Shown: piece after piece, positions 3,001-61,749 of the stretch
How the letters are laid out: each line of letters begins with the position of its first letter
Numbering within the stretch: the stretch's first letter is position 1
Origin: Schmidtea polychroa
Taxonomy: Eukaryota
DNA length: 64,000 nt
Direction of reading: 5' to 3'
Assembly: GCA_044892525.1 (NCBI GenBank)
Contig: CM097885.1
Location: 12,278,001 to 12,342,000 of the forward strand
Translations under genes and position numbers: made by a program
Notes under the pieces: model-generated
The model's input: the letters and a program-made list of their open reading frames with translations, nothing else
The model's database searches: none
Told to the model about the DNA's origin: nothing

Positions 3001-3503
3001 GGTTGTCGAGCCAGATTACCCGGAGATTTTGTCATTAGTGAACCAACATTAACCGATATAGAAGAGAAGTTGACATCGATTCAAGAGGAAATCGACTCAC
3101 AACTAAGTAACAAACAAACAAGCCAACCAAAAGAACATAGTTTTGTAAGCAAACTATTAGTTCACTGCAAAAGAGTGTGGCTTCGATTTGAATTTAGGAA
3201 ATCGTTAGAAGATCCGTACACGGGACCATACGACGTCATAGAAAGACCCGATGACAATAAAACGGTAAAAATCAAAATCGGAGACCAAGTAAAGAATGTT
3301 AGCATCGACCGTCTCAAGCCATGGATTGGAACGGACGAATTGGCTCCGCAATCTTAAGGGGGAGTTGTGTTGGGACATTAATTAATTATTCAACACAATA
3401 ATTTTAAAACAATATTTAAAAACAATTTAATTTGTTTAAATATTGTGTTTGATATAAAATAAAATTTTTGGAACACCAAACACGTGTAACTATGAGTCTT
3501 ACA
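1..3503 (+). mobile_element. Ty3/Gypsy LTR retrotransposon, CsRn1-like, frameshifted; 5' end outside window
   Basis: Gag CHCC knuckle CFYHSKFGHRAMKCQPPC; protease FLIDTGA; RT YIDD and RNase H (TDAS, DRELLA) at 981-2225; integrase HHCC/DDE/GPY at 2314-3357; PPT aagggggag ~3356-3364; short 3' LTR ~3368-3503 (TGT...ACA). The pol frame is broken in several places. Confidence 0.93.
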
Positions 3504-3666
3504 ATGACATTATATGATTCTGTGACTTATTTGATGATTATTAACTTATTTATTAATTTTGTGTTTATAACAATGTATGTAGCCTATTATGTATTAGATA
3601 AATTCAGTGTCACAACAATGTCAAATGTCTAAAACATAATTTTAAGCACCAATAGGTGTAATGTTG

Positions 3667-3885
<219 letters not shown>

Positions 3886-4691
3886 AGTATGTATTATAAC
3901 AGATCATGAAGATAATGAAATAATTGATATTTTTGTACTAATCAATGTAATATTAAATTAAAATTCTTTAAAAGATGTTTGTGTTTTATTTATATAAGAA
4001 CCATCACGTTGAAATTCGAGTAACATCAACATATTATATACATTTTAATAAATTATATTCGATATTTACCAACATAATTAAATTTGGGACGCCAGATTCC
4101 TGCTTGGCACAGGGCGCAATTATAGCTCACTACGACCCTGTGTAGGACCACATATTTAATAACGGTCCGGCAGCTTTAGTCATTTTCCATTCATATTAAG
4201 TTTATTTCTAACAGATCAATTTAAACAACGCAACTATTTCCAAACAGACCATTGAAACTTTTTTTAAGATGTCATGATATTTGTTTCTCATTTTCTGTTT
4301 TTTTTATTTTCAAACGGTGCCGACTTTCAAAATCCCTATTAATTAATAAATTAGTTAGTTTTATTGATTTCCTGCTATCCTCATCTCATTTTTGATTTTT
4401 TATTCATTATAATTTAAATAATTAAAACTGCTGCTTTTTACTTTTGTTTGTCTTTCCGATTCATTTTAAAATTATTTTGATAACTTTAATTTTTCTTTTT
4501 TAGATATTCCTAACATATTAAATTTTTATATTTTTTTACACACATAATGAAAAATGCACATAAACATTTCAAATGAATTGATTTCCAATTTGAAATCGAG
4601 ATAAATTACTATTTATTAGTTTAAGTGTTTAAATATATTCAATAAGCGATGTTTTGTTGTGGTAATTCTTGTGGACTTTCATTATTTTATT

Positions 4692-5149
4692 ATGAGTGTC
4701 AAGGTTGTTGTGACTTATTGGTAAGATTGATTTCTAATATGGGCATTTTATTAATTTTATTTATTTTAATTATATAGTGGCTCATGAGGTTATGGAAGCA
4801 AGGTAATCGGTTAAACATTGGATAGGTAAATGAATTATATAATTTCTAGTTTCAGAGCTTGAAGAAAGATCTGGAACTTGAATTTCCAAACAAACTAACC
4901 ATTGTAAGTTTTTGTATTTTTCCTTTGGGTTAAATTTATTTTCTTTCCAAGACTTCGACTTCAACTCCGACCAAAACTGGATGGTTTGAAGTAGAAGTAA
5001 ATGGTAAACTGATTCATTCGAAAAAGGTATTACAGTGGATTTTTATTTCATGCTTATGTGTTTTATTTAAGAATGGCGATGAATTTGTTGATAACGACAA
5101 AAAATTACAAAAGATCTTCGATGAGATAGCTAAAGCATTGAAACAATGA
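4692..5149 (+). CDS. SELENOW: Selenoprotein W paralog A, copy 1 (86 aa, Sec13)
   Basis: GT-AG exons 4692-4720, 4778-4802, 4850-4903, 4952-5026, 5072-5149 give MSVKVVVTYCGSUGYGSKFQSLKKDLELEFPNKLTITSTSTPTKTGWFEVEVNGKLIHSKKNGDEFVDNDKKLQKIFDEIAKALKQ. In-frame TGA at 4785-4787 sits in CxxU; Rdx motif TGxFEV present. Confidence 0.95.
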
Positions 5150-5181
5150 ACATTTTTAGTTTTTAAATAGTTTTATTTTGT

Positions 5182-5249
5182 ATTGCCAACTCGATGAAAA
5201 TTGTTGTTAAAAATCATTGATTTGCAGCGATTTGATGTTTTCTGGTAAT
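5182..5249 (+). promoter_or_regulatory. SECIS element (type II, AUGA core) of SelW-A copy 1
   Basis: Helix I attgcca/tggtaat; core ATGA 5194-5197 and TGAT 5233-5236; helix II aattgttgt/gcagcgatt; apical AA plus mini-stem aaatc/gattt. Confidence 0.88.
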
Positions 5250-6157
5250 CAATAGATTTGTTAGGCTTTTACCAAATGTTTTTGGAATATTATTTATTTA
5301 TTATCTTATTCAATTAATTATTTATTCACACTTTGAACTTATCTCTAAATCTGAATGTTTACACTAATGTTACTAGGAAGCCGCCATTTTGAATTTATAT
5401 TCATGTTTTAAATATGATTTTGAGAAATTTATTTAATTATGTTTAGGTTATTAATTTATTAAGATCTTGAAAAATATTAATTTTAAAATTATTAGAAAAT
5501 GAGAGGTGGGCAGCGAGTTGGCGAATAAGGTAATCGCCTTGGGCCCCACACGAGCCCATAGGGAGCCAACGTTTTCAGAAAAACCCCTCTTTGTAATCAA
5601 TATCAGCATTTACTTATTAAACCAAAATAAATATTCAAAAATAGAAATAAGATAATCAAAATATCCATTCTCGACATGACCTTTCCCATCATCTCATTTA
5701 CATCTGACCCGTTTTCAAATTCTAATTCGATGATTTCTTGATTTTGAATTTTCAATAAAGCTTTTTTCAATTATATTGAATTTATCACAGGCTTATCACT
5801 ACGCCAGACTAAGTGCTATTGATAATTGTGTAGAATAAAAAGTGTTATTGAAAGTAGTGGAAAGAGAGATTGTTATATTAAAGTATGTGGTTAATAAAAT
5901 TGTAATTGTGGTGATTTCGAATAAACGTTTTTGTGTTGGACTGTACGATTAATTTAACTTACGACACCAAGGAGTTAGATATTGATAACGACATTCATAA
6001 ATACCCAATAATTATGCAATCTTCAATATCTTTCTGAATATAAAACAAATTATTGATCGATAGTCTAAAAAGTAATGAAGATAAAGGAAATGTCTCTCCG
6101 TGTATAATCAATAACAATAAGAACAATAAAGACAAATTATGAATACTATTTATTGGT

Positions 6158-6224
6158 AGCTAAATAACATCAAATTATTGAAAATCAAAAAAGATTTTTA
6201 TCAATAACCATCACTGAATTAGCT
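6158..6224 (-). promoter_or_regulatory. SECIS element (GUGA core) of SelW-B copy 1
   Basis: Reverse complement of 15583-15649. Confidence 0.85.
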
Positions 6225-6269
6225 CTCAATTCTATAACTAAAACTAAGATTTTAGACCACTACAAATGT

Positions 6270-6725
6270 TTATTTCAAGGCCTCTGTAACGGCATCGTAG
6301 ATTTTCTTCTTCTTTTCATTATTATCAACGAAGCCATCGCCGTTCTACAGATTTTATTTATCCAAAATATTCTATATGAAAATTCCAACCTTTTTTGAAT
6401 GAACAAGAGTTCCATTAACTTCAACCTCGAACCATCCGGTTTGCTTTGGAGTGGCACTCGATGTCTGAAATCGGAAACCAAATGTAAACATTCAATTACT
6501 TAAAAATTACTGACAAAAGTTAATTTCTGAGGAAACTTAAGCTCCAGATCCTTTTTAAAGCTCTGAAACTAAATAAATTTTTTTCAAAAGTGCTGCTAAA
6601 AATAATTATATATTTCTTTACCTTAGACGAGTATCCTCAGGCACCGCTTGATTTGAATAAACAATTAATTGAATTTTAATTAAATTACAAAATTACCAGT
6701 AAACCACATTTATTTTCACAGACAT
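6270..6725 (-). CDS. SELENOW: Selenoprotein W paralog B, copy 1 (85 aa, Sec13)
   Basis: Mirror of 15082-15537. Sec TGA at 6637-6639 (tca on +). Intron-1 acceptor is AAG here and CAG in the other arm. Confidence 0.93.
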
Positions 6726-7848
6726 TTTATAGTAGCAAATATTTTACAATAAGATAACAAAATTTAAACTAGTTTGTTGTTAAATTTATTATATAATTAT
6801 TATTTGAGTTACTGATTGGCTTTTATTTCTATTCATTTAAACAATTAATTCTATAGGTTAAATATAAATTCTCTATTTCGTTTCTCTATTGTTTAAAACA
6901 CACAGAAAATCGTTAAGTTACTTCATTTAAACAAAAATGATGTTTAGTCTGTATAATGTCAGTATTAAATCATTTTTAATATTATATGAAAACATTGGTG
7001 CAATTGTATTATAGTTCAATATAACAAATAATCATTGAATAAAATTTACGGCAAAATATTCAAACTGTTAGAATTATAATTTTAATGTGTTAAAATAATT
7101 GATAGAAACGTGGACCCCAGCTAAACACGAATCTTCAACTATCATGAATTGTTTTGGTGAAATTTGGGGCCCCGTTGTTTTTATTTGCGATACTTCCCAC
7201 CAATATTTTGTTAAATATAAATTTTGTTTAATTGATAATTACATAATTTTTAGATATCTGTTTTAATCGATGATTATGTCAAAGATTTTAATATTTTATA
7301 GGAGTTGTTGATCTCCACGCTTCAAATGAAATACTTGTTTTAATAATGTGATAAAGTCATTGCCAATTTGAAATTATTCTTTAAGGGCGTTATTTTGGAA
7401 TTTATTTTGGAACAAATCAATGCTTCTTGGTGCATAGCAGAACAATTCCTCGCAGACATACACACACGCACGCACACGCATATAGCAACAGCACTGCAAT
7501 TCAATAAAAATGCTGCTTTATTGCTATTGTTAACGATAAATTATTTTAGAATATTTATGATTAAATTTTTCTTTTTGTGTCAAGCTATTTTATTTAACCA
7601 GAAATGATAAAATTAACATTAAATTGATTATAAAAATGGAATAAAATTGTAAATTAAATAATGGAAGACTGAGCATAATCAACAAGAAATTAATTAGGAA
7701 ATTTAGGTTCAAAATGGAGTTCATCGGTTTCAAGATTTTTATGCTAAAGAAATGGACATATTTATATTTGAAACTCATCTTAAATTTGATATTATAAAAC
7801 CACCAGACAATTTACAACTAGACCTAATTGATTTGCAAATAATTTTAA

Positions 7849-14110: not shown

Positions 14111-15081
14111 TAAGCAAAAACAGAAGCATTTTGATCCTAAATTTTCGAATTAATTTACAATTTTATTCCATTTTTATAATCAATTTAATGTTAATTTTAT
14201 CATTTCTGGTTAAATAAAATAGCTTGACACAAAAAGAAAAATTTAATCATAAATATTCTAAAATAATTTATCGTTAACAATAGCAATAAAGCAGCATTTT
14301 TATTGAATTGCAGTGCTGTTGCTATATGCGTGTGCGTGCGTGTGTGTATGTCTGCGAGGAATTGTTCTGCTATGCACCAAGAAGCATTGATTTGTTCCAA
14401 AATAAATTCCAAAATAACGCCCTTAAAGAATAATTTCAAATTGGCAATGACTTTATCACATTATTAAAACAAGTATTTCATTTGAAGCGTGGAGATCAAC
14501 AACTCCTATAAAATATTAAAATCTTTGACATAATCATCGATTAAAACAGATATCTAAAAATTATGTAATTATCAATTAAACAAAATTTATATTTAACAAA
14601 ATATTGGTGGGAAGTATCGCAAATAAAAACAACGGGGCCCCAAATTTCACCAAAACAATTCATGATAGTTGAAGATTCGTGTTTAGCTGGGGTCCACGTT
14701 TCTATCAATTATTTTAACACATTAAAATTATAATTCTAACAGTTTGAATATTTTGCCGTAAATTTTATTCAATGATTATTTGTTATATTGAACTATAATA
14801 CAATTGCACCAATGTTTTCATATAATATTAAAAATGATTTAATACTGACATTATACAGACTAAACATCATTTTTGTTTAAATGAAGTAACTTAACGATTT
14901 TCTGTGTGTTTTAAACAATAGAGAAACGAAATAGAGAATTTATATTTAACCTATAGAATTAATTGTTTAAATGAATAGAAATAAAAGCCAATCAGTAACT
15001 CATATAATAATTATATAATAAATTTAACAGCAAACTAGTTTAAATTTTGTTATCTTATTGTAAAATATTTGCTACTATAAA

Positions 15082-15537
15082 ATGTCTGTGAAAATAAATG
15101 TGGTTTACTGGTAATTTTGTAATTTAATTAAAATTCAATTAATTGTTTATTCAAATCCAGCGGTGCCTGAGGATACTCGTCTAAGGTAAAGAAATATATA
15201 ATTATTTTTAGCAGCACTTTTGAAAAAAATTTATTTAGTTTCAGAGCTTTAAAAAGGATCTGGAGCTTAAGTTTCCTCAGAAATTAACTTTTGTCAGTAA
15301 TTTTTAAGTAATTGAATGTTTACATTTGGTTTCCGATTTCAGACATCGAGTGCCACTCCAAAGCAAACCGGATGGTTCGAGGTTGAAGTTAATGGAACTC
15401 TTGTTCATTCAAAAAAGGTTGGAATTTTCATATAGAATATTTTGGATAAATAAAATCTGTAGAACGGCGATGGCTTCGTTGATAATAATGAAAAGAAGAA
15501 GAAAATCTACGATGCCGTTACAGAGGCCTTGAAATAA
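15082..15537 (+). CDS. SELENOW: Selenoprotein W paralog B, copy 2 (85 aa, Sec13)
   Basis: Exons 15082-15110, 15161-15185, 15239-15292, 15343-15417, 15463-15537 give MSVKINVVYCGAUGYSSKFQSFKKDLELKFPQKLTFTSSATPKQTGWFEVEVNGTLVHSKKNGDGFVDNNEKKKKIYDAVTEALK. TGA at 15168-15170. Confidence 0.95.
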
Positions 15538-15582
15538 ACATTTGTAGTGGTCTAAAATCTTAGTTTTAGTTATAGAATTGAG

Positions 15583-15649
15583 AGCTAATTCAGTGATGGT
15601 TATTGATAAAAATCTTTTTTGATTTTCAATAATTTGATGTTATTTAGCT
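15583..15649 (+). promoter_or_regulatory. SECIS element (type II, GUGA core) of SelW-B copy 2
   Basis: Helix I agctaa/ttagct; core GTGA 15593-15596 and TGAT 15635-15638; helix II ggttattga/tcaataatt; apical AA plus aaatc/gattt mini-stem. Confidence 0.85.
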
Positions 15650-16556
15650 ACCAATAAATAGTATTCATAATTTGTCTTTATTGTTCTTATTGTTATTGAT
15701 TATACACGGAGAGACATTTCCTTTATCTTCATTACTTTTTAGACTATCGATCAATAATTTGTTTTATATTCAGAAAGATATTGAAGATTGCATAATTATT
15801 GGGTATTTATGAATGTCGTTATCAATATCTAACTCCTTGGTGTCGTAAGTTAAATTAATCGTACAGTCCAACACAAAAACGTTTATTCGAAATCACCACA
15901 ATTACAATTTTATTAACCACATACTTTAATATAACAATCTCTCTTTCCACTACTTTCAATAACACTTTTTATTCTACACAATTATCAATAGCACTTAGTC
16001 TGGCGTAGTGATAAGCCTGTGATAAATTCAATATAATTGAAAAAAGCTTTATTGAAAATTCAAAATCAAGAAATCATCGAATTAGAATTTGAAAACGGGT
16101 CAGATGTAAATGAGATGATGGGAAAGGTCATGTCGAGAATGGATATTTTGATTATCTTATTTCTATTTTTGAATATTTATTTTGGTTTAATAAGCAATGC
16201 TGATATTGATTACAAAGAGGGGTTTTTCTGAAAACGTTGGCTCCCTATGGGCTCGTGTGGGGCCCAAGGCGATTACCTTATTCGCCAACTCGCTGCCCAC
16301 CTCTCATTTTCTAATAATTTTAAAATTAATATTTTTCAAGATCTTAATAAATTAATAACCTAAACATAATTAAATAAATTTCTCAAAATCATATTTAAAA
16401 CATGAATATAAATTCAAAATGGCGGCTTCCTAGTAACATTAGTGTAAACATTCAGATTTAGAGATAAGTTCAAAGTGTGAATAAATAATTAATTGAATAA
16501 GATAATAAATAAATAATATTCCAAAAACATTTGGTAAAAGCCTAACAAATCTATTG

Positions 16557-16624
16557 ATTACCAGAAAACATCAAATCGCTGCAAATCAATGATTTTTAAC
16601 AACAATTTTCATCGAGTTGGCAAT
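16557..16624 (-). promoter_or_regulatory. SECIS element (AUGA core) of SelW-A copy 2
   Basis: Reverse complement of 5182-5249. Confidence 0.88.
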
Positions 16625-16656
16625 ACAAAATAAAACTATTTAAAAACTAAAAATGT

Positions 16657-17114
16657 TCATTGTTTCAATGCTTTAGCTATCTCATCGAAGATCTTTTGTA
16701 ATTTTTTGTCGTTATCAACAAATTCATCGCCATTCTTAAATAAAACACATAAGCATGAAATAAAAATCCACTGTAATACCTTTTTCGAATGAATCAGTTT
16801 ACCATTTACTTCTACTTCAAACCATCCAGTTTTGGTCGGAGTTGAAGTCGAAGTCTTGGAAAGAAAATAAATTTAACCCAAAGGAAAAATACAAAAACTT
16901 ACAATGGTTAGTTTGTTTGGAAATTCAAGTTCCAGATCTTTCTTCAAGCTCTGAAACTAGAAATTATATAATTCATTTACCTATCCAATGTTTAACCGAT
17001 TACCTTGCTTCCATAACCTCATGAGCCACTATATAATTAAAATAAATAAAATTAATAAAATGCCCATATTAGAAATCAATCTTACCAATAAGTCACAACA
17101 ACCTTGACACTCAT
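16657..17114 (-). CDS. SELENOW: Selenoprotein W paralog A, copy 2 (86 aa, Sec13)
   Basis: Mirror of 4692-5149; Sec TGA at 17019-17021. Confidence 0.94.
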
Positions 17115-18422
17115 AATAAAATAATGAAAGTCCACAAGAATTACCACAACAAAACATCGCTTATTGAATATATTTAAACACTTAAACTAATAAATAGTAA
17201 TTTATCTCGATTTCAAATTGGAAATCAATTCATTTGAAATGTTTATGTGCATTTTTCATTATGTGTGTAAAAAAATATAAAAATTTAATATGTTAGGAAT
17301 ATCTAAAATAGAAAAATTAAAGTTATCAAAATAATTTTAAAATGAATCGGAAAGACAAACAAAAGTAAAAAGCAGCAGTTTTAATTATTTAAATTATAAT
17401 GAATAAAAAATCAAAAATGAGATGAGGATAGCAGGAAATCAATAAAACTAACTAATTTATTAATTAATAGGGATTTTGAAAGTCGGCACCGTTTGAAAAT
17501 AAAAAAAACAGAAAATGAGAAACAAATATCATGACATCTTAAAAAAAGTTTCAATGATCTGTTTGGAAATAGTTGCGTTGTTTAAATTGATCTGTTAGAA
17601 ATAAACTTAATATGAATGGAAAATGACTAAAGCTGCCGGACCGTTATTAAATATGTGATCCTACACAGGGTCGTAGTGAGCTATAATTGCGCCCTGTGCC
17701 AAGCAGGAATCTGGCGTCCCAAATTTAATTATGTTGGTAAATATCGAATATAATTTATTAAAATGTATATAATATGTTGAGGTTACTCGAATTTCAACGT
17801 GATGGTTCTTATATAAATAAAACACAAACAACTTTTAAAGAATTTTAATTTAACACACTGTTGACCGGCAATTTTGGGTTTTGGCATGAAAACACGAGTT
17901 AACGCGTGATCGGTCAATAATATGCTAATATAACACTGATTAGTTCCAAAAAATATCAATTACCTTGTACATTTAGTTATATAATATTTAGGAGCTGAGA
18001 TGTATATGTGTATAGCTAAATGCAGTTTCCTGAGGTCGGATATGTTTTATAAGTATTCTCAAAATTATGTTGTAATATCAATTGCTGAATTTATAACTCT
18101 TCAGAGTATATATAATTTTATGGGTGGTTTGACCGAGGAAAACGTTGGTTTGTATTTTTCCTTCATTAACAACTTTCTATTTTTAAAAGTACAGTCAACA
18201 GTTACTATTTTTAGTATCCTCGAGATTTCCAACATCTCTGACGTTAGAAGTGTAATCTCATGTTGTAGAGTACTCGTTATAATCGTTTTATTATATAATT
18301 GTTCTTAATTATCTTCATAATCTGTTATAATGCATTCTACTTCCTCAACATACTTTTTGTTTAAATCAGTGGGTATAATTTAATGTAATTCCCATATTCA
18401 TAACCCTTAGTATTTATTATCA

Positions 18423-18525
<103 letters not shown>

Positions 18526-18950
18526 TCAACATTACACTTATTGGTACTTAAAAATATGTTTTAGACATTTAACATTGTTGTGACACTGAGTGTATCTAAT
18601 ACATAATAGGCTACATACATTGTTATAAACACAAAATTAATAAACAAGTTAATAATCATCAAATAAGTCACAGAATGGTCATTGAAATGAATCATATAAT
18701 ATCATAAAGTATCATTATTAGAATATTATCTCTGTAGTTCATGATTATTCTTGTACATTTATTTTTGGTTTAAGAAATATATTCATTTTTAATTTCTTAC
18801 ATTTAGGCTAAAATTATTTTGAGTTCAAAAAAAATAAAACAGTACAAATCATTAAAATGTTTTATAGTTGTACAGACATTACTACTTCTATATTTTGGTA
18901 GAGCGCTACTCAGCTTAACTAGCTACTGTTCATATTGTTGTGAGAATAAG

Positions 18951-19142
18951 TTAGGGTTAGAGTTAGGGTTAGGGTTAGGGTTAGGGTTAGGGTTAGGGTT
19001 AGGGTTAGGGTTAGGGTTAGGGTTAGGGTTAGGGTTAGGGTTAGGGTTAGGGTTAGGGTTAGGGTTAGGGTTAGGGTTAGGGTTAGGGTTAGGGTTAGGG
19101 TTAGGGTTAGGGTTAGGGTTAGGGTTAGGGTTAGGGTTAGGG
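18951..19142 (+). repeat. Interstitial telomeric array (TTAGGG)32
   Basis: 192 bp, 32 units, one TTAGAG variant. Confidence 0.98.
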
Positions 19143-29454: not shown

Positions 29455-32400
29455 TATAATTATAATAATAATAATAATAATAATAATTATAATAATAATA
29501 ATAAATAATAAAATAATAATAATAATAATAATAAATAAATATTAATAATATTATATTTACCTATAGCGTTGATTTTGTATTTCCCTTCGCATAATTTCAT
29601 TCAAATAAGCAGCTCTTAGTTCTCCTTGATGATTAATTTCGCAGCGAATATTTGCTAATTCTTCTTCTTCCATAACTTCAAGCAAAGCTTGTTCAATGGT
29701 TTTCGTAACTAATACTTCAATTATTGGTTTCACTTCAATATCAAAAAAGAACACCTGAAAATAATATTATTTTCTCTCTTAACGTTCTCTTGATTAAAAC
29801 AATATTGTTTTTAATTGTTTCATTAAAATGTTAAAAAATAGTTGAAGTAAACTCTACTGTTAACTAATAATAATTGTTTTTATTTCTTTTACAATAACTC
29901 AGCCGATATAATGTGAATTTTTACAGGGATTTTTGTTTTTCTGTTTAATTATTTAGATTTTGATAAATCATCAGATCCTTTAGAAATAAACTTGCCTAGG
30001 GTGAAATATAAACCTTTACATGAGCCTTAATGAACACATCAAAAATAAACTAGTAAATACCATGAACGTATGAAAAAGGGAGTCTCATCTTTATGCTAGA
30101 AAAAAAATATCATATTATCTAAGAATTATTCAAAATTTCCTTTCTACCAGGCAATAAATTTTCGCAGTATTTAATGTAGAGACATACAATTAACTTAACA
30201 AATAATTTATTGTTATTAACATTGTCGAAGAACTTGAACATCACTAGAGATATCATTGTGAATACGATGAAGGTTTCTGTTTCCTGTATTTCTGACATAT
30301 TTGATCCATTGATTTTGACTCGATTTGATGATTCTTCAACTTCTTCTACTTGTTCGACTTCAGTGACAACTTCAGTTACTTCGTTAGACATGTTTGAATT
30401 TGATGATGATTTTTGATAAAGTGAAAAGAAAAAGATTATTTAAACAATGTTTTTAATTTTTTATTTTAATTTAATTTATTTAATAATATATTTTTATAAG
30501 ATAACCCCAATCAAACATTCTTTTCGCGATATATTTCGACAGTTTTCCTGTCATCATCAGGTGGGATATAATAACTCATTAAATTAAGAATTTTAAACAA
30601 ATATATTAATTATATATAAAAATTTTTTTTATTTTATAAAAACATTTAATTATTTTTAAAAAAATTATACTTAAATTAATATATTATTTTTTTTAAATTT
30701 TAGCATTTAAAATTTAATTTATTAATTTAAAATTTTTTTATTAATTATTCAATTTAATACAATAATCAATACATACAATATAAAAAAACATATTTTAATA
30801 CTTATTTAAAAACACTCAAAACACAAGTATTTACTCATTCTGCACATTAATTTTCGGATTTAATGATTTTATCAACAACGCCTCACAAATCACACATTTT
30901 TAGTTCAATTATTAAATTGATAAAAGAGCTAGTCAGAGGCACTACATTTAATAATTTTAAAATAATTAATTTTATAAATATATTTAATTTTATAATATAT
31001 CTGTTAGGGATATTATATAATTAAGGAAATAAAATATTACTAAAGATAGATATAAATTTAAAATAGAAATAAATTAAATAATAAAAATAGAAATACAACT
31101 GGAAAAATTACTAAAATTAGAAATAGCCTATGTTTGGTAATTGTAGGATGAATTAACCCCATAAATAGTATTTTTACAATTACTAAAAATAGAAAACTTG
31201 TTTAAATTATAATAAAAAAGCGCGTTCAAAATTATTAAAAGGGAGAAATAAAAACTGAGCAATTCAGGAAATAGTAAAAAGTACTTTGGTGTTGTAAGAA
31301 AAGAAATTGATTGGAGCAGATTAATACTCAAACCGAGAAAATTAGAGCAGTTGTTGAAACAGGCGATTAAAAGGCACAGCTGTTGTTTAAAGGGAAAATT
31401 TACTATAAATTCCCAAGTAGAATTGTCAGAAAGCAGAGTTGAAAGAGACCAGACATTTGAGTTTTCAGGAGATTTGCGGTTGAAGAAAGTGATCATTAAT
31501 TAGGTGAATTTACAAAAGCTTTGATACTTTAAAGGATAAATCAGTATCCTGTGTTTTTTTAAAGCGAATACAAAGTAGAGAGAGAACCGTACTTTGGTAT
31601 TCCCTAGGCGCACCAAGCTAATTACCCTTTTACTTACCCATCTTATAAAATTATAAAATCCGTATCTTATTTGTTCTGTTTATTTGATCACATTGTGTAA
31701 ATTTATTTTGTAAATTATAAATAAAAGTAATTTTAAAAGTGAAGTTGTTTTTTTTTATTTGCATACTATATACACGCAACCGCACGAAGTATTTATTATT
31801 TACTTTATTAATATTATAATTTATTGGAGTCAACTGTGTTAAGATTAGCAACCCCATCTTTTTGATCTTAAGATTTTGGTGTGCCCGACGTGATCTAATT
31901 TTCGGGGGAATAAAATATTATTTATAAAAGGCAATTTTCTTTTTAAATCATTGAGTTAAGAAATAGGAGAGTAATAAATAATGTTAATATGCCAGTAGCT
32001 CAACCACCAGCGGTAGATTTTATGAGATATCCAGCTATACCGATTAAAACATTTAGTGGGAACCCAGAGGAGTTTCAAGAATTTATGTCCGAATATTTCC
32101 AGTTATCCAGAGCATTAGGATTCCATGAACCAGTAATAATTTTAAGATTACCTTCATATTAAAGGGATGGTCGAGAAAGATATAATGATGTTATAATAGC
32201 TGAGAATACAGTTGAATAGAATGTAGTTGGATTAGCGCTACAAAATAGAATATTACCAGGTGATGCAACCATAGTACTTAGACAACAGTTTTATAATAGA
32301 CGACAAAATTTGGGTGAGCATGTTGGGGAACTTTGCGGAAAGAGCTTTTGGTTATAGAGCAGCCTGGAATGATGCAACGAAAAAGGTAAAAGACCAGTTT

Positions 32401-35387
32401 TGGTCAGGGTTATCGTCCGCAATGAGAATTGCACTCAGTTTACATATAGGGGATGATTTAGAGAAATTAACCGGTAAAGCATGTTTAATTTAGAGTAATA
32501 TAGAAAAGTCAAATAATTTCGCAATTAGTAGCAATAAATCCGACATTGAGCGTTTATTATTGTCATAAAATGGGTCATATATCAAAGGACTGTAAGATTA
32601 GGAATAATTCACCAGGGGACAAATCATGTACCAGATGTGGGAGAAATAATCATGTGGCAGCAAATTGTAGAATTTCGGACTTAAATTCAGATCATAAATT
32701 GACATATTTACAACAGCTTGAATTAGAGATTCAAGAAGAGAAATAGTTTAGCAAGCCTAACGACAAATGAAATTGATGGGTACGGCGAAGATGAAGCCGA
32801 AATTTACATGCTGCAGACAAAAATGGCGAAATAAAGATAACTGTGAACGAATAAATAATGTAACAGAACTCGAAGTATTGATGCTTCAAGAGAGTCCACA
32901 GGAGGACAAAGAACAAAAGACTATGGTCGTAGAACCAGAGGCTTGTGAGGGTTTACCGGTTTCACCCAGTAAAAATCGAGTGGCTATGGTCACAGAGCCA
33001 GAGGCCAATAGAGAAATAGAAGGTTTACCGGCTTCACTTAGTAAAAATAGTAAAGCTATGGACTTAGATCCAGTGGCTAAGAGAATTGATTCAATAGAGA
33101 TTTTAGAAAAACGATGGACTTCGGTCAATGAACCGGAAGTTCTAATAGCCACATGATCCATGAGAGGTGATGGTGGTAGCGAACCAAGAATGCGTAGAGA
33201 AGCATTGAAAGAGGAAGAAAATCCCATCAATGACTGTAAAATGATATTACGACACAAGTGCGTATGGCAAAAGGAAGTAAGACAGAAGCTGGAAAATATC
33301 CGTTTAAACCCCGTTAATGAGAATGAGGTTGATAAAATAATGGACATAAAATTGAAGTTAGACAGAAATGATGAATATCATCCAGTATTAAGAGAAATTC
33401 TTCAAAAACATCAGATTAAATTGGAACCGAAAAGAGAATCAGGAGGATTCTATAGTCTTCGTATCTCTCCCAAGGGGTTGTTTTTGTAGATAACTATTAC
33501 CTGGGAGGACCGATATCAGACAATGGTTTTTTTCATGGTAGAAAGAAAGTGAGAAGTTCTAATGATGTAAGCTATGTTGTAACAGTCGAGGATTACACAG
33601 TAGAGCTGATATAATATGAAGGAACCTTTGTAGTATCTACGGGGAAAATGATGTCTCATTCGGAATGCAATGTAAATTTTGGTTATTGTAAAACCAGTTC
33701 GGCAGTATTGACTTACTAATCCAGATTTAGTAATGCCAATGTTAACAGAGGAATTTTGGGGCAATTACCAAATTACCAAATTACCAAATACAACTAATGT
33801 ACGTTAGAGCTTCTAGTAAAATATAAAGGCAAGTTGAGATTCATGATACCAGTATCGCATCAGTTAATATATGAGGATGCATCACCATTTAAGACAATTT
33901 GCAATCCAGCAATGTCACCATTATACAAAATTAACAAAGTATGGATTTCACTGGCTGACAGAAAGCCACCTTCGAAACCAGTAGAAATGCTTCAAGCTAC
34001 AAAACTAGAAACTAAAATGGAGTTCCGACCGTTAAATGAGATGTCAAATGGAGGAGTATATACTCCGGAAGATATTGAAGAAGCTCGGAGAGCAATAGTA
34101 TTTCCTCAAATCAGAGATAGGGGAGTGACAGAAATATTAACCAGAATTTACCAATCATATGACGGAAAACCGGACTACAACTTATTATTTAAATCGGAAT
34201 ATTACAAGCAAGCTGCATCAAATTCAATACGGAAAACCTGGGGTAGATTTACAAGTTTTGGCATTTTATTAACAGGATGTTCACGTATATACGCAATAGT
34301 GATGATATTGAAAATAATAATATCGCAATTATTTTCCACGTATAGTATCTTCAAGATCGGGGATGGTCTTGGAAGTTGCTACTGGGAATGTGTCCAGTTT
34401 GTGCAAACTTCGCAGTATTTCATCATCATAATAAATAGATTAAGAAAATGAAGAGGCCAAATGTAACGAAGCATGAATTAATAAAGTATGAATATAGCTA
34501 TCGAGACAATGACAATTCTGATGAGAGAGGTGACCTTGAGAGCTAGGAGACCTCAGATAATACCTCAACAAAACCACACAACAAAAAACCGAAATTTCAA
34601 AATTTTGAAACTATGGCCTGTGAATTATTTGTCACCATATGAGGTTAGAAAAAAGATAATACCAGAAAAAGTAGAAGAGGAAATGTTAAAGCGTCTCGAT
34701 TTTTGAAGTGTTTCGTCGCTGGAAACGTTTGGTAAACCCTGAATTACATCATTAAAATTAAAGTACGAGGCTAGGTTCAGGGGAACACACTCAACTCTTC
34801 TCGCATTGCCTTGGATAGAACAGAAAATATAATGAAACACGGGAAAGAGCATACTTTATAGAATTTAAAATAAAGGTAGAAACTCGTGAATCATCTCTTA
34901 AGTATTTATTATACATTAATAGAATGCTTACGTCTCCTTCATAAACTTGGGTTGATACATCAACTCCGGATTTGGCGGGAATGAATAAAGGAGTTGAAGG
35001 ACGATTCAGAAAGTTATCCGTCTGTGTACATTTATCTATTAATTCAATTTTATCCACTAATTCTTCCAAATACAAATCGGTTTGAACTTCTTCATGCAGT
35101 CTACCGGCAACTGGCGGAAGATCAGGTGGTAAATAACCGCCTTTGAACGCTTTTGTACGAGGAATTTTCTTTAAAGGTCTCAAGTATTCTGTATTTTTAC
35201 ACTGCACTGTCGTAAGCTCATTGATTCTTTTATCTCTGATTCAATGAAAAGTCATAACATATCTATCTAACCCTTACTCAATGAATTCTTTGTCTTTATA
35301 CGGTTTCCATTTGTCAGAACAAACGGTTGGGAAACTTTCAAATACAAATGTTCCCCCAACAGTTTCATTCTTTCTCAAACCAGGCAT
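26875..35387 (-). CDS. RSPH3: Radial spoke head protein 3 (5 exons)
   Basis: Exons 35387-35278, 35235-34932, 29754-29561, 29365-29193, 27014-26875 join in frame. Motifs VQTDLYLEEL, RPSTPLFIPAKSGVDVSTQ, FDIEVKPIIEVLVTKTIEQALLEVMEEEEL, NGYFRDPVE. Confidence 0.92.
28116..28673 (+). pseudogene. Degenerate 28S rRNA fragment inside RSPH3 intron 4
   Basis: Matches conserved LSU blocks ccgcagcaggtctccaa, aacaatgtaggtaagggaagt, aggattggctct, agttctcttttcttt, gccttgaaaatc, with substitutions. No flanking rDNA. Confidence 0.9.
29392..29545. repeat. (AAT)n microsatellite, intronic
   Basis: Read directly. Confidence 0.95.
30100..30930 (-). mobile_element. Penelope-like retroelement remnant (GIY-YIG C-terminus plus pLTR region)
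   Basis: Minus strand ~30835-30895 reads ICEALLIKSLNPKINVQNE, like the GIY-YIG end of PLE ORFs, followed by a hammerhead-like motif. Confidence 0.65.
30524..30566 (-). ncRNA. Minimal type I hammerhead-ribozyme-like motif, degenerate stem I
   Basis: CUGAUGA-U-[GACAG gaaaa CUGUC]-GAAA-UAUA-UC on the minus strand. Confidence 0.55.
31002..34860 (+). mobile_element. Internally deleted LTR retrotransposon: 5' LTR, PBS-Trp, gag, accessory ORFs, env-like
   Basis: Putative LTR 31002-31873; PBS tggtgtgcccgacgtgat at 31877; decayed gag with two CCHC-type knuckles (32546-32746); no pol detected; glycoprotein-like ORF downstream. Confidence 0.8.
33490..34451 (+). pseudogene. Chuvirus-like envelope glycoprotein remnant
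   Basis: ELLVKYKGKLRFMIPVSHQL..CNPAMSPLYKINKVW..GGVYTPEDIEEARRAIVFP..WGRFTSFG plus a hydrophobic tail follows the chuviral G pattern as I recall it. Recognised by eye. Confidence 0.7.
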
Positions 35388-37454: not shown

Positions 37455-38130
37455 ATTTGTAATGAATACTTGTATTATCAAATTGAACTTGAAGATATAA
37501 AAGATAATGAAGATATAACTTTGGAAAATAATCTTTTTCCAAACTTGTTTTCAAGTATGAAATTACAAATTGCATCTTATGATATTGAAACATTTGATAA
37601 TCCTAGAGTATATTCTACAATGTTAAATTTAATTTTAACAGGACAAGATTACAAAAAACAATATGGGTAAATAATTGGACGGATTCATGATACAGAAAAT
37701 GGTGATAATGATGTAAGGGGTGCCTATGCAAATACAGGATATGTAGCAAGAAAAGAACTCTACAACAAAACAAAGAAATTTGAAGGATTTTTTGAATTAA
37801 AATACTTATTTGGATTTTTACAGGATTATAATAGAATCATTCATGATATAAAAATTGAATTAATCTGTTGAGAGATGTAAATGACAAAAATTATTTTATG
37901 GAGCAGCCAATACTGAAGCAAAATTAAAATTAAAAACTTTGGAATTTCATATTTCATATGGAGTTTGAATCCTAGAGCAGAAATAAAAATAATAGAAAGA
38001 TTAAACACCAACAATTCTATAAATGTAAAATATTTGAATAGAAAATGTACAGTACTTGATTTAGGAGTTGGATCAAGCCATACAATAAATTTGGCAACTT
38101 TAGCTTATAGACCTCAATATATTATAATAG
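37455..38130 (+). pseudogene. Polinton/Maverick-type double jelly-roll major capsid protein fragment
   Basis: Broken frame reads NNLFPNLFSSMKLQI..IE..NP..STM..NTGYVARK..LKYLFGFLQDYNRII..RPQYIII; truncated by the LTR at 38131. Confidence 0.65.
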
Positions 38131-41100
38131 TGTTGAGGATACCAAAATAACAATTTATAAAGAAGTAAATAAAATTACCTGGTGGAAGATCGCCATGACA
38201 AACGGGACGATCTATAGAAACTCAGAAAAGAAAACGGAAATGAAAAGAAATTAAAAATGAGAAAGAGAAAGGAAATAAAAGTTATCAAACAGGAAAATAA
38301 AAATCAAGGTCAGTACTAATTAATTAGTAAAGAAAGGAAAAGGAATTTTGAAATTGGGGGAAAAGGAAAACAACAATATCCTTATCTCGACAGCTTGCCA
38401 GTGATAATAGAATTGATGGGATAAGACGATCAAACAAAAAAGGGAAAAGGAAAAACTACTTGACAGCTGTCAGAGATAAAAATGGGACAGTCGGGAAAAG
38501 TAGGAGAAGGAAAATGGAAAAACACTTGATTATCTGGATTGTCACAAGAGAAGCGAACTATATAAGGGAAAACTGGTGAACATGAAAGGGGAACAAAATT
38601 AGAAGAAAAATTGGAGATAAAGTGACGCGAAATTGAAAACGATTTGGAAGACGATTTGAGAGACAATTTGAGAAATAAAATTATTGGAGAAAAGTAGACG
38701 TTGGACGAAACGTTGTTGGACAAACGATTGTCAAAAATAATTGTAAAGGAAATAATTGTGGAAGATAATTATTGGAGAAGAGTTGAAGAAAACAATTAGT
38801 TGAATAATAAAACGAAAAGAAGTTATTGATTATTTGAATAAAGTTTGGAAGAAAGTCAAAGAAAACAACCAGCTCAAAATCCCAGTTTAGAAACCAATCA
38901 GTAATTTGTGATCTTTTAATCCGGTGTTATACAAAAGTGCTATTCCTCACCGAGTGTTGCAATAAGCATTGCATAGTAACCGAGCAGAGGTTAAATTTAT
39001 TGTCAGTGTGAAAAAAAGTGTATTTGTGATTATCAATAAAGATTTCTGTTGTCAAGTGTTATTTTTGAATTATATAAAGACACGCTTGGAGTCAGAGTAA
39101 CATTTAAAATAACCACCAACTCAATAACCCAACATATTTTGGTGAGCCCGACGTGATCAAAAGTTGGTGAAGAGATTGTTGAAAAGGAAAATTGTGAAAA
39201 TAAAGTGTGTGAATTGAAATTATAAAAGTGATTTCGGAAAGGCAAATTGTTTATTGTAATAATAATTAGATTTAGATTTTGTGAAATTTGAAAACGAAAA
39301 AATTTATTAAAGTTAACCGATATTATTTACGAAGCCAGAGTAAAAAGGAAGCTATAATGAGCAGTGAAGATTTACCAGTTTCAGTTATTAAAGAAAATAA
39401 TGATTTTGCCAGTTGTCAAAGATTGCCAATAGAACAATATGGAGGAGATCGAATTATTTTTGTTGATTTTATGAGAGATTACTATATGTATGCAACGGCT
39501 TATGGATGGTCTCAAGCAATCATGATTCAAAGATTACCCTTATATCTTAAAGGAGCAGCTAAAGAGGTTTGGCAACTAATAGACACGAAAAAAATCGACA
39601 ATTATTGGGCCAAATTAAAAGATGCATTGGTTGCTAAACCTATTGGAGGAGATATAAAGAGATTAATGCGTCAGAAATTTTATAATAGAGTTCAAAATCC
39701 AAATGAAACAATGAGCGAATTTGCATATCATTTATCGACCCTTGCCAGCAAATCCTTTGAAGAAGATTCGAAACAACCAGGATTAGCCCAACAGATGCAG
39801 GAACTGATTCAAGATCAATTTTTGTCAGGAGTAAATAAAGAGATAAAAACGGCATTATGTTTTGTAGAGTATGACAATTTCGATGAACTAGTTAAAAAGG
39901 CAATGAAAATCGAATTGAATCTAAAGAGCTCTAAAATAAATCCGAGGTATTTGCAATAATTCCAGTACAAAGAGAGAGATCAGTAACCCCAACCCAAGAC
40001 AATTGGGAATCAGGAAATAGATTTCAACGATCAAAGAGCCCATCACCTAAATGGAGAAACGATAATAATATGAACAGAGCAAGCCAAAATTCACCCGGCG
40101 CTGAGAGAACTAAAGTTATTCAGTGTGATATTTGTAAGAAAATTGGCCATTATACAAATCAATGTTGGTTTAAAAATAATTCTGAAAGAGTACCCAGTAG
40201 ATTCAGTCCAGATTGGCAAAGAGATAATAGAGGAACGAATTCTCGGAGAGCAATTCCTAATGTGAAGTCAAATTTTAATGAGGTACAATGTTATCGCTGT
40301 GGTAGAAAAGGACATGTTTCTAGAAATTGTTTTTCAAGATCAAGATCACCATCAATGTCACCATCACCACAAAGAGATAATGTGAATTTAAATGGACAAA
40401 TTCAATGTCATTTATGCAGAAATTACGGGCATATTGCAAGATCTTGTCCCAGGAATTCCGATAAATTTCAAAGACCGATTTTGAAACGAACAATTAGATT
40501 TCAGGATGAAATCCAATCAAAGAATAACGTTGCTTATGTTCAGAAAGATAAATTTAGAGAAAAAATTGAGAACGATGTCAAACAATTGAATCAAAAATTG
40601 AATAAATTGATGGCGAAATTTGAATCAGATGAAGAAACAGATTCTCATATGATGACAAGACGAAAATTGAAGACAGATGAATCCAAACTTGATGATGTTA
40701 CAAGAAACAGAGTTAAAACAGATATGCAAAGTGAAAAGAGTACAATACATTGCTAAGGCCAGAAAATTAGTAACAGAACCTGATGCAAACTCTGAAAAAT
40801 TGACAGAAGTGTTGATGAAGCTAACGGAAATACCGTTGAGTTTAACCAAAATTAAAACTGTTATTAAACTTTGTACGGAATGTTATGCAGCAAGTGTGGA
40901 AAAGCGAGATGTATTTGAAAAGTATATGAAAGAATTTGGCCAAAATCTACGAAAATTCAAATGGTTAGACCCGATATTTATTAAAACAAATACATCAGAC
41001 GGCACCAAATCCGAGTATCAAATTGAAGCATACGGAAAAACACCCGAGCTAAAAAGAGAAATAATGCACAAATGTGAAGTTTGGGCAGTAGAACTTAGAT

Positions 41101-41663
41101 TTATGAATCGGGTGTTGGAAGACGACGAATTTTGAATAGATTGTGGATTGATCCCCGGCGTTGAAAATGAGATACAAATAGTGAGCATGATGGCGAATGA
41201 AAAACCAGTTAAATATGATGTCGATAAAATTAAATTTGAATTAAATGAAGCATTGATCAAGGGGGATACAAGTGATATTAGTGATAAATTAAATGATATT
41301 TTGAATTTAGAATATAAAGTGGAAGATAAATTAAAAATTTTAGATTGTGTCAGACCCTATGTAAATTATGATAATGAATATAGTGAAATGATAAAAAAGC
41401 TTATTCGTAAATTTGAACAAGAATTTAGAAAAAAAGGAGTTTATATTGAGCCATTCGTAATAATGTTAAAAATAAATGATCAAGAAGTGGAATGTACCAA
41501 CGAGCATTGGTGTACGAAAGTGAGTAAAATACGACGGAGAGCAGCAGAAATTATGGGCAATGATGGAATAATTGTATTGACATACAAAGGTTTTGAGTTA
41601 GATGATGATGAGTATTTAGTCGAGACATCCTTAATTGTCCCACGCCTAAACAATAACAATTAA
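38131..41663 (+). mobile_element. 5' part of LTR retrotransposon: ~1 kb LTR, PBS-Trp, gag with three CCHC knuckles, accessory ORFs
   Basis: LTR TGTTG...CAACA 38131-39134; PBS tggtgagcccgacgtgat 39140-39157; capsid-like ORF 39288-39959 (LPLYLKGAAK, FYNRVQNPNETMSEF); three CX2CX4HX4C in 40070-40756. Confidence 0.88.
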
Positions 41664-50270: not shown

Positions 50271-51990
50271 CAGTGGTCGCCAACCCTATGGCCGTGGACG
50301 CCATGGCCAACCAGCTGTTTTATGTGTGCTACCAGAAAAAAAGTAAATAAAGTAAAATAATTGAAATTTGAGCGAATTTTTTAATTTAAAAAAAAATGAA
50401 AATCGATAGATTTCGAAATTTTAAGATAATAATAAGCATATTTTTATAATTTTTCTTTACTCGTTGTTTATAAAAATATGGCTAAAAAATTCTCTATCCT
50501 TAAAAACCATTAAATTAATTTTATGGTCAATGTGGTTTAAATGTGGTTCAAATGTGGTTTATTTGTAATTTGTGTTTATATATTTTCTTTATTCATTATT
50601 AATCTTTTGTTTTCATAATGGTACTCGAATGTTTTTTGATTTTAAATTTGTTATTTTGCTGTACACTTGCAAGACCATTAATTGTTTATTGTTTTTAAAT
50701 TAGATTAAATTTAGATATAAACTTGTAATTTATTATTTCTCTGTTCAAAGTCAAAAGTGAAAAAAAATTTAATTCTAAAATGAGTGCAAGTAAAAGACAA
50801 CGAACGTATAATTTTAACACAGATTGGGGTGAATCCTATTGTTTTGTCAGTATTAAAGATAAATGTGTTTGTTTATTGTGCGGTAGCACAGTTGCAGTGG
50901 CAAAAATACATAATTTTGAACTTCACTTCTATTCTAACCATAGCACTTTTGATACTAATTACCCAGTTAAATCAGAAATTAGAAAGAACAAAATTAGAGA
51001 CCTTAAATTAAATTTATCTGGCCAGAAATCAATTTTCACTTGAAATTTGGTAAAATCTAAAAATGCCACCATTGCTTCTTTTAAAATTTCCCACAGGCTC
51101 GCAAAGAAAAAAAACATATCAAGGCGGTGAGCTGATAAAAGAAGCATTTCTTGCTGGCGTTGAGTGCTTATTTGAGGGACTTTCCAACAAGCCTGAAATT
51201 ATGTCAGCAATACCAGATTTACAGTTGTCAGGCAATACGGTTATAAGAAGAATACATGAAATTTCAACAGACATGCAAACTCAACTAAAAATGACTTAGA
51301 AATATCTGATTGGTTTGCTTTGCAATTCGACGAGTCAGCTGACATATCAGATACAGCACAGTTGGCAGTAATGGTGAGAACGGTTTTTAATGACTTCACT
51401 ATAAAAGAAGAGCTGTTGAAAATATTACCAATGCACGGACGAACATCAGGTCTGGATATCTTCAACATATTCAAAAAATTTGCAGATTCAATAGATATAC
51501 CTCTCCACAAGCTATCTGATATCACCACTGACGGGGAACCAGCAATGGTTGTAGTATCAACGAATTTATCGCCCTGTGCAAGAAAGATAAATGCTTTCCC
51601 AACTTTATGGCGTACCAATGTATTATCCATCAGGAAGTATTGTGCAGTAAAATACTTTCATTTGCTCACATTATGAAGATCGTAATGAAAATTGTTAACT
51701 CTATTCGAGCAGCTCCTTTACAACACCGACTGTTCAGGGCCTTACTGGAAGGTACTGAAGATGAACATTCCGATCTTATCTTGCATGCAGAGGTACGATG
51801 GCTCAGTAAAAGCAAAGTGCTTACAAGATTTTTTAGCTTGATAGATGAAATAAAAAAATTCCTCGAATCTAAAAATCAACACTTTGATGAATTGCACGAT
51901 GCTTCATGGTTAATGAATTTGGGATTCCTCACAGATATCATGAACAAATTGAACGCTTTAGACTTGGAACTGTAGGGAAAGGATAAACAC
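50271..51990 (+). mobile_element. hAT (SPIN/Charlie, GTF2IRD2-like) transposase pseudogene, 3' truncated
   Basis: Left end cagtggtcgccaacc after ctctagtg; zinc finger CVCLLC..H; QFDESAD, TTDGEPAM, CIIHQE, EVRWLS; frameshifts and stops. Confidence 0.92.
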
Positions 51991-61572: not shown

Positions 61573-61749
61573 CTGAAAATGGAATTAATCAAACTTAATC
61601 AAAATCTAATTAATTGAATTAGAGGCAGAAAAAGCATTACAAATTGCAGAAAGCAAAGAGATCGAGGGAAATCGTTATTGATAGAAAGAATAAATTGCGA
61701 GTAATTTTGATGTTAATGAGATCATTAGTTGGTAATTACATTATTAACA

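What the first reader, a model, noticed from the sequence alone, without database searches (positions are those of the whole stretch)
31002..34860. LTR retroelement with a chuvirus-like envelope gene in an RSPH3 intron
Seen: LTR, tRNA-Trp-type PBS, Gypsy-like CCHC gag, unknown ORFs, then a co-oriented glycoprotein-like ORF (GGVYTPEDIEEARRAIVFP...WGRFTSFG plus TM) in the env position; pol is absent. Known: chuvirus glycoproteins have been captured by BEL/Pao elements in mosquitoes. Inference: an independent env capture by a Gypsy-like lineage in this animal, i.e. a possibly undescribed endogenous-retrovirus-like family.
Basis: partly seen in the sequence, partly recalled or inferred. Interest (0 to 1): 0.75.

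Follow-up and report, generated by a model that had tools for sequence, protein, structure and literature searches.

The report
Broken flatworm envelope-before-pol retroelement relic
This is a broken, cut-short copy of a multi-copy virus-like jumping gene in an intron of a likely flatworm gene, and its chuvirus-like envelope gene most likely belongs to an already described old lineage that places the envelope before the copying enzymes, so it is not a new capture.

Summary
The parts are real. A probable 5' LTR, a primer-binding site, a broken CCHC gag and a Monjiviricetes/chuvirus-type fusion glycoprotein (Pfam E=1.4e-24) lie antisense in an RSPH3 intron, and read depth shows a multi-copy family.

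The inference of an independent, undescribed capture does not hold. The closest env relatives are Gypsy-type polyproteins reading env-protease-RT-RNaseH-integrase. The env groups with them (97/89), not with named chuvirus glycoproteins or the Pao-linked one (AU p=0.0008). A neighbouring host gene places the animal among flatworms. This layout is published for planarian Burro/GYPSM1 (PMC6431247) and for nine Platyhelminthes gB-type elements (PMC13524379).

So pol was most likely lost downstream of env, together with the 3' LTR, not between gag and env. This copy is dead: about half of env remains, with stops, deletions and a frameshift. The scan has noted the same layout in at least eight other places of this genome. 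Ordinary: a decayed new member of a known kind.

The parts
31002..31873 (+). Probable 5' LTR (872 bp), unpaired; starts TGTTAGG, ends CTTAAGA (imperfect inverted ends)
   Evidence: Sequence; no second copy in the window; only 31830-31873 was covered by the read comparison
31877..31894 (+). Primer-binding site (tRNA-Trp type by recall, not tested)
   Evidence: One other match within 3 mismatches in 64 kb, at 39140, right behind the LTR end of a second gag relic
31980..32746 (+). Broken gag with two CCHC knuckles; stops at 32160 and 32217, pieces in three frames
   Evidence: PF00098 E=5.5e-7; gag profile from 4 relatives iE=4e-4 at 32046-32324; frames; stops
32761..33156 (+). Low-complexity spacer frame with a 66-bp internal duplication (32947-33012 / 33019-33084, 76%)
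   Evidence: Self-comparison; no Pfam match
33157..33489 (+). Likely helical half of the module that relatives carry between gag and env; cut off where the env remnant begins
   Evidence: 9.6 bits against a module profile, 0 of 1000 shuffles as high; only iE=0.6 in a whole-window search, so modest
33474..33725 (+). First env remnant (profile positions 134-218 of 659), stops at 33612 and 33717
   Evidence: Env profile from 9 relatives, iE=7.8e-10; stops
33777..34495 (+). Second env remnant (profile 404-643) with membrane anchor; stop at 33795, frameshift near 34360; class III (gB/Monjiviricetes-type) fusion protein
   Evidence: iE=1.6e-54 and 8.7e-6; PF24664 E=1.4e-24; Foldseek to chu-like virus glycoproteins E=7e-6 to 9e-4
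34496..34779 (.). Env tail and an unassigned multi-copy stretch; other copies leave this sequence near 34610; no protease, no 3' LTR, no target-site duplication
   Evidence: Depth and loose ends; blastx against relatives
34932..35117 (-). RSPH3 exon upstream of the host intron (upper end approximate, from the Pfam match)
   Evidence: PF06098 positions 1-62, E=1.8e-23; donor GTAAGC at 34931
29560..29754 (-). RSPH3 exon downstream of the host intron (lower end approximate)
   Evidence: PF06098 positions 63-126, E=4.5e-20; acceptor TTTTCAG ending at 29755

Best explanation
This is a decayed copy of a multi-copy LTR retroelement family with gag and a gB/chuvirus-type envelope gene, inserted antisense in an RSPH3 intron, and it most likely derives from a Burro-like flatworm Ty3/gypsy element of the gag-env-pol order that lost pol and the 3' LTR downstream of env. 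How the intact family would work (inferred from relatives and papers): transcription starts in the 5' LTR; one long polyprotein holds Gag, spacer modules, Env, protease(s), RT, RNase H and integrase; the protease would cut it; a host tRNA would prime reverse transcription at the PBS; integrase would insert the copy; the class III Env would let particles fuse with other cells (untested for any flatworm element). This copy cannot do any of that itself: gag and env carry stops and frameshifts, env lacks its N-terminal part and a middle block, and all behind the env tail is gone. It is likely tolerated because it is spliced out with the intron.
For: Shown: env homology. Of the ten best sequence hits, 9 were scanned in Pfam; 7 of 9 have an aspartic protease behind env in the same ORF, and 2 of these also RT, RNase H and integrase. 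Of 160 env-matching proteins among 164 examined, 18 have protease or RT behind env and 0 in front. Two natural contigs, L001 and L002, show env-protease-RT-RNaseH-integrase in one frame; L002 also has the zinc knuckles in front. Tree of 46 chosen rows: the window env lies in a 20-row clade (97/89) that holds all 12 env-protease rows; forcing it with the 15-row clade holding the named chu-like glycoproteins and the Pao-linked one is rejected, p=0.0008. A 46-residue env stretch matches the published Smed_errantivirus_1 env at 17 positions without gaps (read by eye, against the supplement row). Host DRC2 groups with trematodes (99/96) inside a flatworm clade (97/95). Read depth over 31830-34779 is above the flat single-copy level of the RSPH3 flank in all 25 bins in all 4 runs, mostly by tens of times. 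Contigs identical to the window cover 32000-33024, 32995-33332 and 34615-35350, so the breaks there and the 3' junction are not assembly errors.
Against: No pol is present, so Ty3/gypsy membership and gene order are inferred from relatives, not shown for this family. No full-length copy was seen; the host genome is not held. The window env is a long branch (1.23) and only 28-39% identical to its nearest long relatives. The 'before 0, after 18' count is biased, because env in gag-pol-env elements is a separate ORF. The AU group was named after seeing the tree. The host tree uses one gene with no planarian row and long flatworm branches. The module match at 33157-33489 is modest. No Bcl-2-like, BIR or MATH cargo of Burro was found here.
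Confidence: 0.88

Rival explanations
1. One reading: a Gypsy-like lineage in this animal captured a chuvirus glycoprotein on its own, env sits in the usual 3' place, and pol was deleted between gag and env.
For: Pfam and Foldseek name chu-like virus glycoproteins; a deletion does join the region before env to the env remnant near 33474; the window env is a long branch.
Against: Named viral glycoproteins score far lower (E about 1e-11, 29%) than env-protease polyproteins (E 3e-33, 36%); tree and AU test; the frame in front of env resembles the module that precedes env in relatives; the layout is published for flatworms.
Confidence: 0.03
2. The whole family, not just this copy, lacks pol: a non-autonomous gag-env element copied in trans by autonomous Burro-like elements.
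For: Multi-copy depth spans gag, spacer and env and continues to about 34779 without a protease match; sibling contigs show further internal skips, e.g. 32857 to 33651 in 2 of 4 runs.
Against: This copy has no 3' LTR or target-site duplication, which a mobile non-autonomous unit needs; other copies go on with different sequence near 34610 and before 33796, so the deletions look private to this copy; all near relatives long enough to tell have pol domains behind env.
Confidence: 0.07
3. The LTR-gag part and the env part are unrelated neighbours: a solo viral glycoprotein fossil next to a Gypsy relic.
For: No single contig listed spans gag to env; PMC10084718 reports chuvirus glycoprotein fossils beside Gypsy fragments without capture (passages).
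Against: Same strand and same order as in L002 and P0007; continuous multi-copy depth; a sibling contig joins 32857 to 33651, linking the spacer behind gag to env in another copy; env groups with retroelement polyproteins.
Confidence: 0.02

Closest known systems
Burro / GYPSM1 giant gypsy-like LTR retrotransposons of Schmidtea mediterranea and Dugesia tigrina (PMC6431247, section 7 read)
   Same: Flatworm host; Gag with 2-3 CCHC knuckles; env with hits to mononegavirus-type fusion glycoproteins placed between gag and protease; extra module(s) between gag and env; decaying fragments with stops and frameshifts reported there for D. japonica.
   Different: This copy is a 3.8-kb dead fragment; no pol, no 3' LTR; no MATH, BIR, BCL2 or ankyrin cargo detected; its LTR is about 0.87 kb; family identity not established by RT.
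GAG-ENV-POL HSV/gB-type 'errantiviruses' of Platyhelminthes, Nematoda and Bryozoa, esp. Smed_errantivirus_1-6 (Chary and Hayashi, PMC13524379; parts 2-4 of the text, section 14, first part of section 9 and supplement rows seen)
   Same: Same env type (the paper says it resembles Chuviridae envelope and gB); direct env similarity to Smed_errantivirus_1 by eye; multi-copy; same inferred order.
   Different: The paper lists intact elements only; this copy would fail its filters. The host may be a species the paper did not list (its 9 flatworm rows come from 3 species). The paper gives no PBS for the six Schmidtea rows.
Anakin BEL/Pao elements of mosquitoes with chuvirus glycoprotein (Dezordi et al. 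2020, PMC7642597, passages)
   Same: Same broad glycoprotein family inside an LTR element.
   Different: Pao rather than Gypsy; the Pao-linked glycoprotein found here (P0058, with DUF5641) falls in a different clade from the window env.
Jingchuvirales / Monjiviricetes glycoproteins and their solo fossils in genomes (PMC10084718, first part and passages)
   Same: PF24664 membership and Foldseek matches.
   Different: More distant than the retroelement envs; here the gene is part of a multi-copy LTR element.

Membership tests
Flatworm GAG-ENV-POL gB-type Ty3/gypsy elements (Burro-like) | Class III, gB/Monjiviricetes-type env | tested here: met
   PF24664 E=1.4e-24; 11 BFVD matches at E<=0.001, all 9 named ones viral glycoproteins
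Flatworm GAG-ENV-POL gB-type Ty3/gypsy elements (Burro-like) | Env belongs to the env-before-protease clade | tested here: met
   Clade 97/89 with all 12 env-protease rows of 46; AU p=0.0008 against the chuvirus/Pao clade
Flatworm GAG-ENV-POL gB-type Ty3/gypsy elements (Burro-like) | Gag with CCHC knuckles upstream of env, same strand | tested here: met
Flatworm GAG-ENV-POL gB-type Ty3/gypsy elements (Burro-like) | Ty3/gypsy pol (PR-RT-RH-IN) downstream of env | tested here: inconclusive
   Absent from this copy, which ends shortly after env; present in that order in nearest relatives; other copies of this family could not be read
Flatworm GAG-ENV-POL gB-type Ty3/gypsy elements (Burro-like) | Paired LTRs with target-site duplication | tested here: inconclusive
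   Only one LTR-like unit and no duplication in this truncated copy
Flatworm GAG-ENV-POL gB-type Ty3/gypsy elements (Burro-like) | Flatworm host | tested here: met
   DRC2 tree, 99/96 with trematodes, 97/95 with Macrostomum; one gene, long branches
Flatworm GAG-ENV-POL gB-type Ty3/gypsy elements (Burro-like) | One uninterrupted gag-env-pol reading frame | not testable with these tools
   This copy is broken; no whole genome is held
Burro/GYPSM1 in the narrow sense | Giant size and MATH/BIR/BCL2/ankyrin cargo | tested here: inconclusive
   None found in the retained frames, but the stretch in front of env is deleted; not filed as Burro proper
Anakin (BEL/Pao with chuvirus glycoprotein) | Pao-type domains and glycoprotein in the Pao/chuvirus clade | tested here: not met
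   No Pao domain in the frames scanned; env outside that clade
tRNA-Trp-primed LTR elements | PBS complementary to the host tRNA-Trp 3' end | not testable with these tools
   No tRNA in the window; label rests on recall

The most novel reading that the evidence does not exclude
The family, present in what looks like tens of similar copies, is a pol-less gag-env satellite that autonomous Burro-like elements copy in trans, and that could supply or borrow an envelope of a long-branch lineage. The reads do not show what follows env in the other copies, so this is not excluded.
Probability: 0.07. Interest if true: 0.45.

Novelty: new member of a known kind. Interest (0 to 1): 0.13.

Why it matters
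Little as it stands. It adds one decayed copy of a probably unnamed family to a published group of flatworm envelope-bearing Gypsy elements. It is a useful warning for the scan: a chuvirus-like glycoprotein behind gag with no pol in a flatworm genome is usually a cut-short gag-env-pol element, not a fresh capture. It would matter more only if the family turned out to be pol-less as a whole.

Tried and rejected
No whole genome is held, so no copy search or RT tree for this family was possible.

Searches that found nothing useful: word-based protein search for longer relatives, 0 of 339 candidates; PDB by sequence, no match under E=0.2; Foldseek on PDB, 0 of 139 matches at E<=0.001, herpes gB rows only at E 2.8 or worse; related loci in viral contigs, 0 of 73 candidates, and in prokaryote genomes, 0 of 18; look-ups of earlier findings by sequence, 0 windows in three tries and none near this place; no RNA holder listed, which says nothing on expression.

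Weak or superseded results: the first host tree on one exon was unresolved. The Foldseek TM-scores to viral glycoproteins are low (0.18-0.35) and the model was built from an alignment that holds such proteins, so it adds little beyond Pfam. L001 and L002 show no terminal repeats and no match to the PBS pattern. A by-eye likeness between 33157-33489 and the second relic's 'IMHKCEVW' stretch was dropped: the profile puts the match in the other half of the module. Short env pieces gave no Pfam match on their own. The paper search for Trp-primed flatworm Gypsy elements listed 4 papers, none opened. The putative LTR upstream of 31830 has no read data, so its copy number is open.

Full report
Observation. 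The element starts with TG at 31002. An 872-bp AT-rich unit runs to 31873 and ends in an imperfect inverted copy of its start. Three bases later lies an 18-base primer-binding-type site; its only other match within three mismatches in the window is at 39140, directly behind the end of another LTR-gag relic. The LTR has no partner and no target-site duplication was found near the 3' end, so it is probable, not shown. Gag is in pieces over three frames, with two zinc knuckles (E=5.5e-7; frames). ORF 33798-34451 matches PF24664, the Monjiviricetes fusion glycoprotein, at E=1.4e-24. RSPH3 exons lie on the minus strand on both sides, at consecutive profile positions 1-62 and 63-126, with normal splice sites at 34931 and 29755. 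The element is therefore antisense inside a 5.2-kb intron.

State of this copy. A profile built from 9 relatives' env (659 positions) finds positions 134-218 at 33474-33725 and 404-643 at 33777-34495. About half of env is left; the N-terminal part and a middle block are missing. There are stops at 33612, 33717 and 33795 and a frameshift near 34360. Behind the env tail nothing matches the relatives' protease, RT or later ORFs. Contigs of public runs that are identical to the window cover 32000-33024, 32995-33332 and 34615-35350, so the breaks there and the junction to the RSPH3 flank are real.

It is a family. Summed contig depth over 31830-34779 was 40-2306, 422-4582, 108-4777 and 90-3965 in four runs from two studies, against 12.3, 53.8, 46.6 and 40 on the flank at 34780-35350. 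The tool warns that this is no copy number, but it fits tens of copies. The deep contigs listed differ from this copy at about 6-16% of positions. Some go on with other sequence before 33796 and after 34610, and one joins 32857 to 33651, linking the spacer behind gag to env in a second copy.

What the env is related to. An exhaustive search found 216 proteins at E<=0.001 and listed 150. The best are long polyproteins. Of the top ten, 9 were scanned: 7 have an aspartic protease behind env in the same ORF, 2 of them with RT, RNase H and integrase; one ends at the env tail and has a weak Bcl-2 match in front. Among 160 env-matching proteins of 164 examined, 18 had protease or RT behind env and none in front; this count cannot see elements with env as a separate ORF. 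Two metagenome contigs show the design: L002 has one 3703-aa frame with knuckles, env, proteases, RT, RNase H and integrase, then an exonuclease ORF; L001 is the same from the spacer on. Their RNase H and integrase domains and order are those of Ty3/gypsy (established knowledge), with no Pao domain listed.

Trees. A quick tree of 133 rows put the window env in a 21-row group (SH-aLRT 93) with 15 env-protease rows. A careful tree of 46 rows that I chose from these gave a 20-row clade at 97/89 holding all 12 env-protease rows. The named viral glycoproteins (Hubei lepidoptera virus 4, Neuropteran chu-related virus OKIAV150) and a Pao-linked one fell in a separate 15-row clade at 96/96. Forcing the window env into that clade is rejected (p-AU 0.0008), with the caveat that the group was named after seeing the tree. 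The window env is a long branch. A fold of the ORF piece (pLDDT 86, pTM 0.50) matched 11 viral models at E<=0.001, the 9 named ones all glycoproteins, several chu-like, with low TM-scores; nothing significant in PDB.

The 'unknown ORFs'. 32761-33156 is a low-complexity spacer with a 66-bp duplication. 33157-33489 scores 9.6 bits against a profile of the module that relatives carry once or twice between gag and env, above all 1000 shuffles, though only iE=0.6 in a whole-window search. The second relic at 40749-41639 has two clear copies of that module (iE 5.5e-13 and 2.4e-10).

Host. Five exons of the neighbouring DRC2 gene group with four trematodes (99/96) and, one step out, with Macrostomum (97/95) among 42 rows. 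No planarian row was available, so 'flatworm' is the limit of the claim.

What is known. PMC6431247 (section 7 read) describes planarian Burro/GYPSM1: Gag with CCHC knuckles, then env with hits to mononegavirus fusion glycoproteins, in frame before the protease, and decaying fragments in Dugesia japonica. PMC13524379 (parts 2-4, section 14 and the first part of section 9 read) reports gB-type env in GAG-ENV-POL order in Nematoda, Bryozoa and Platyhelminthes, notes that this env resembles Chuviridae envelope genes, finds 114 arthropod gypsy elements with it, and argues for an ancient acquisition. Its supplement lists 9 flatworm elements from 3 species. By eye, a 46-residue stretch of the window's first env remnant matches Smed_errantivirus_1 at 17 positions without gaps. 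The mosquito Pao case is PMC7642597 (passages). I saw only single rows of the supplements, and not the figures; they may place this family more exactly. Earlier notes of this scan report the same layout, more intact, at eight other places of this genome; I checked their papers, not their loci.

Mechanism. Shown: the parts, their order, their decay, the multi-copy state, the intron position. Inferred: the intact family makes one Gag-Env-Pol polyprotein that its protease cuts, primes on a tRNA at the PBS, and may use the class III Env to enter other cells; this copy lost pol and the 3' LTR after insertion and is spliced out with the intron. Untested anywhere I read: fusion or infection by a flatworm element. 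The main open point is what follows env in the other copies; a pol-less satellite family is not excluded (about 7%).

Verdict. A real feature, partly misread. A decayed new member of a known kind; interest 0.13.

Noticed in passing
window 38131-41663 (+): A second relic of the same kind: a 1004-bp LTR-like unit with TGTTG...CAACA ends, a near-identical PBS at 39140, gag (PF03732), several CCHC knuckles and two copies of the pre-env module, cut off before env; its LTR shows no similarity to the first element's.
   Followed up: partly
window 3953-7657 and 14150-17853: A 3.7-kb inverted repeat with 100% identical arms (two adjoining pairs), flanked by ATT microsatellites and enclosing a broken Gypsy pol on the minus strand; could be a young fold-back element or an assembly feature.
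   Followed up: no
window 37500-38130 (+): Broken frames with a weak double-jelly-roll match (PF21738, E=0.036), possibly a Polinton capsid fragment into which the second relic inserted.
   Followed up: partly
window about 18950-19141: Interstitial array of TTAGGG telomere-type repeats.
   Followed up: no
window 32-3357 (+): Ordinary gag-pol Gypsy element with long RT and integrase frames and no env seen.
   Followed up: no
window 30119-30570 (-): A coding-like, glutamate/valine-rich frame inside the same RSPH3 intron, with a second short coding-like stretch near 30500-30570; no Pfam match above cut-off for the frame. Possibly a stray exon or gene fragment.
   Followed up: no
window 51260-51975 and 61623-62012 (+): Fragments that look like hAT and piggyBac transposases (labels by recall).
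   Followed up: no
L001 2-12107, L002 97-13473, P0007, P0154: Relatives carry two to four or more aspartic-protease-like domains behind env, a long tail behind integrase that looks membrane-anchored by eye, and a separate RNase T-like exonuclease ORF; earlier notes of this scan mention the tail and the exonuclease.
   Followed up: partly
P0004: An env-protease-RT-integrase polyprotein is filed under a Flavobacteriaceae metagenome bin; likely animal DNA contaminating that bin.
   Followed up: no
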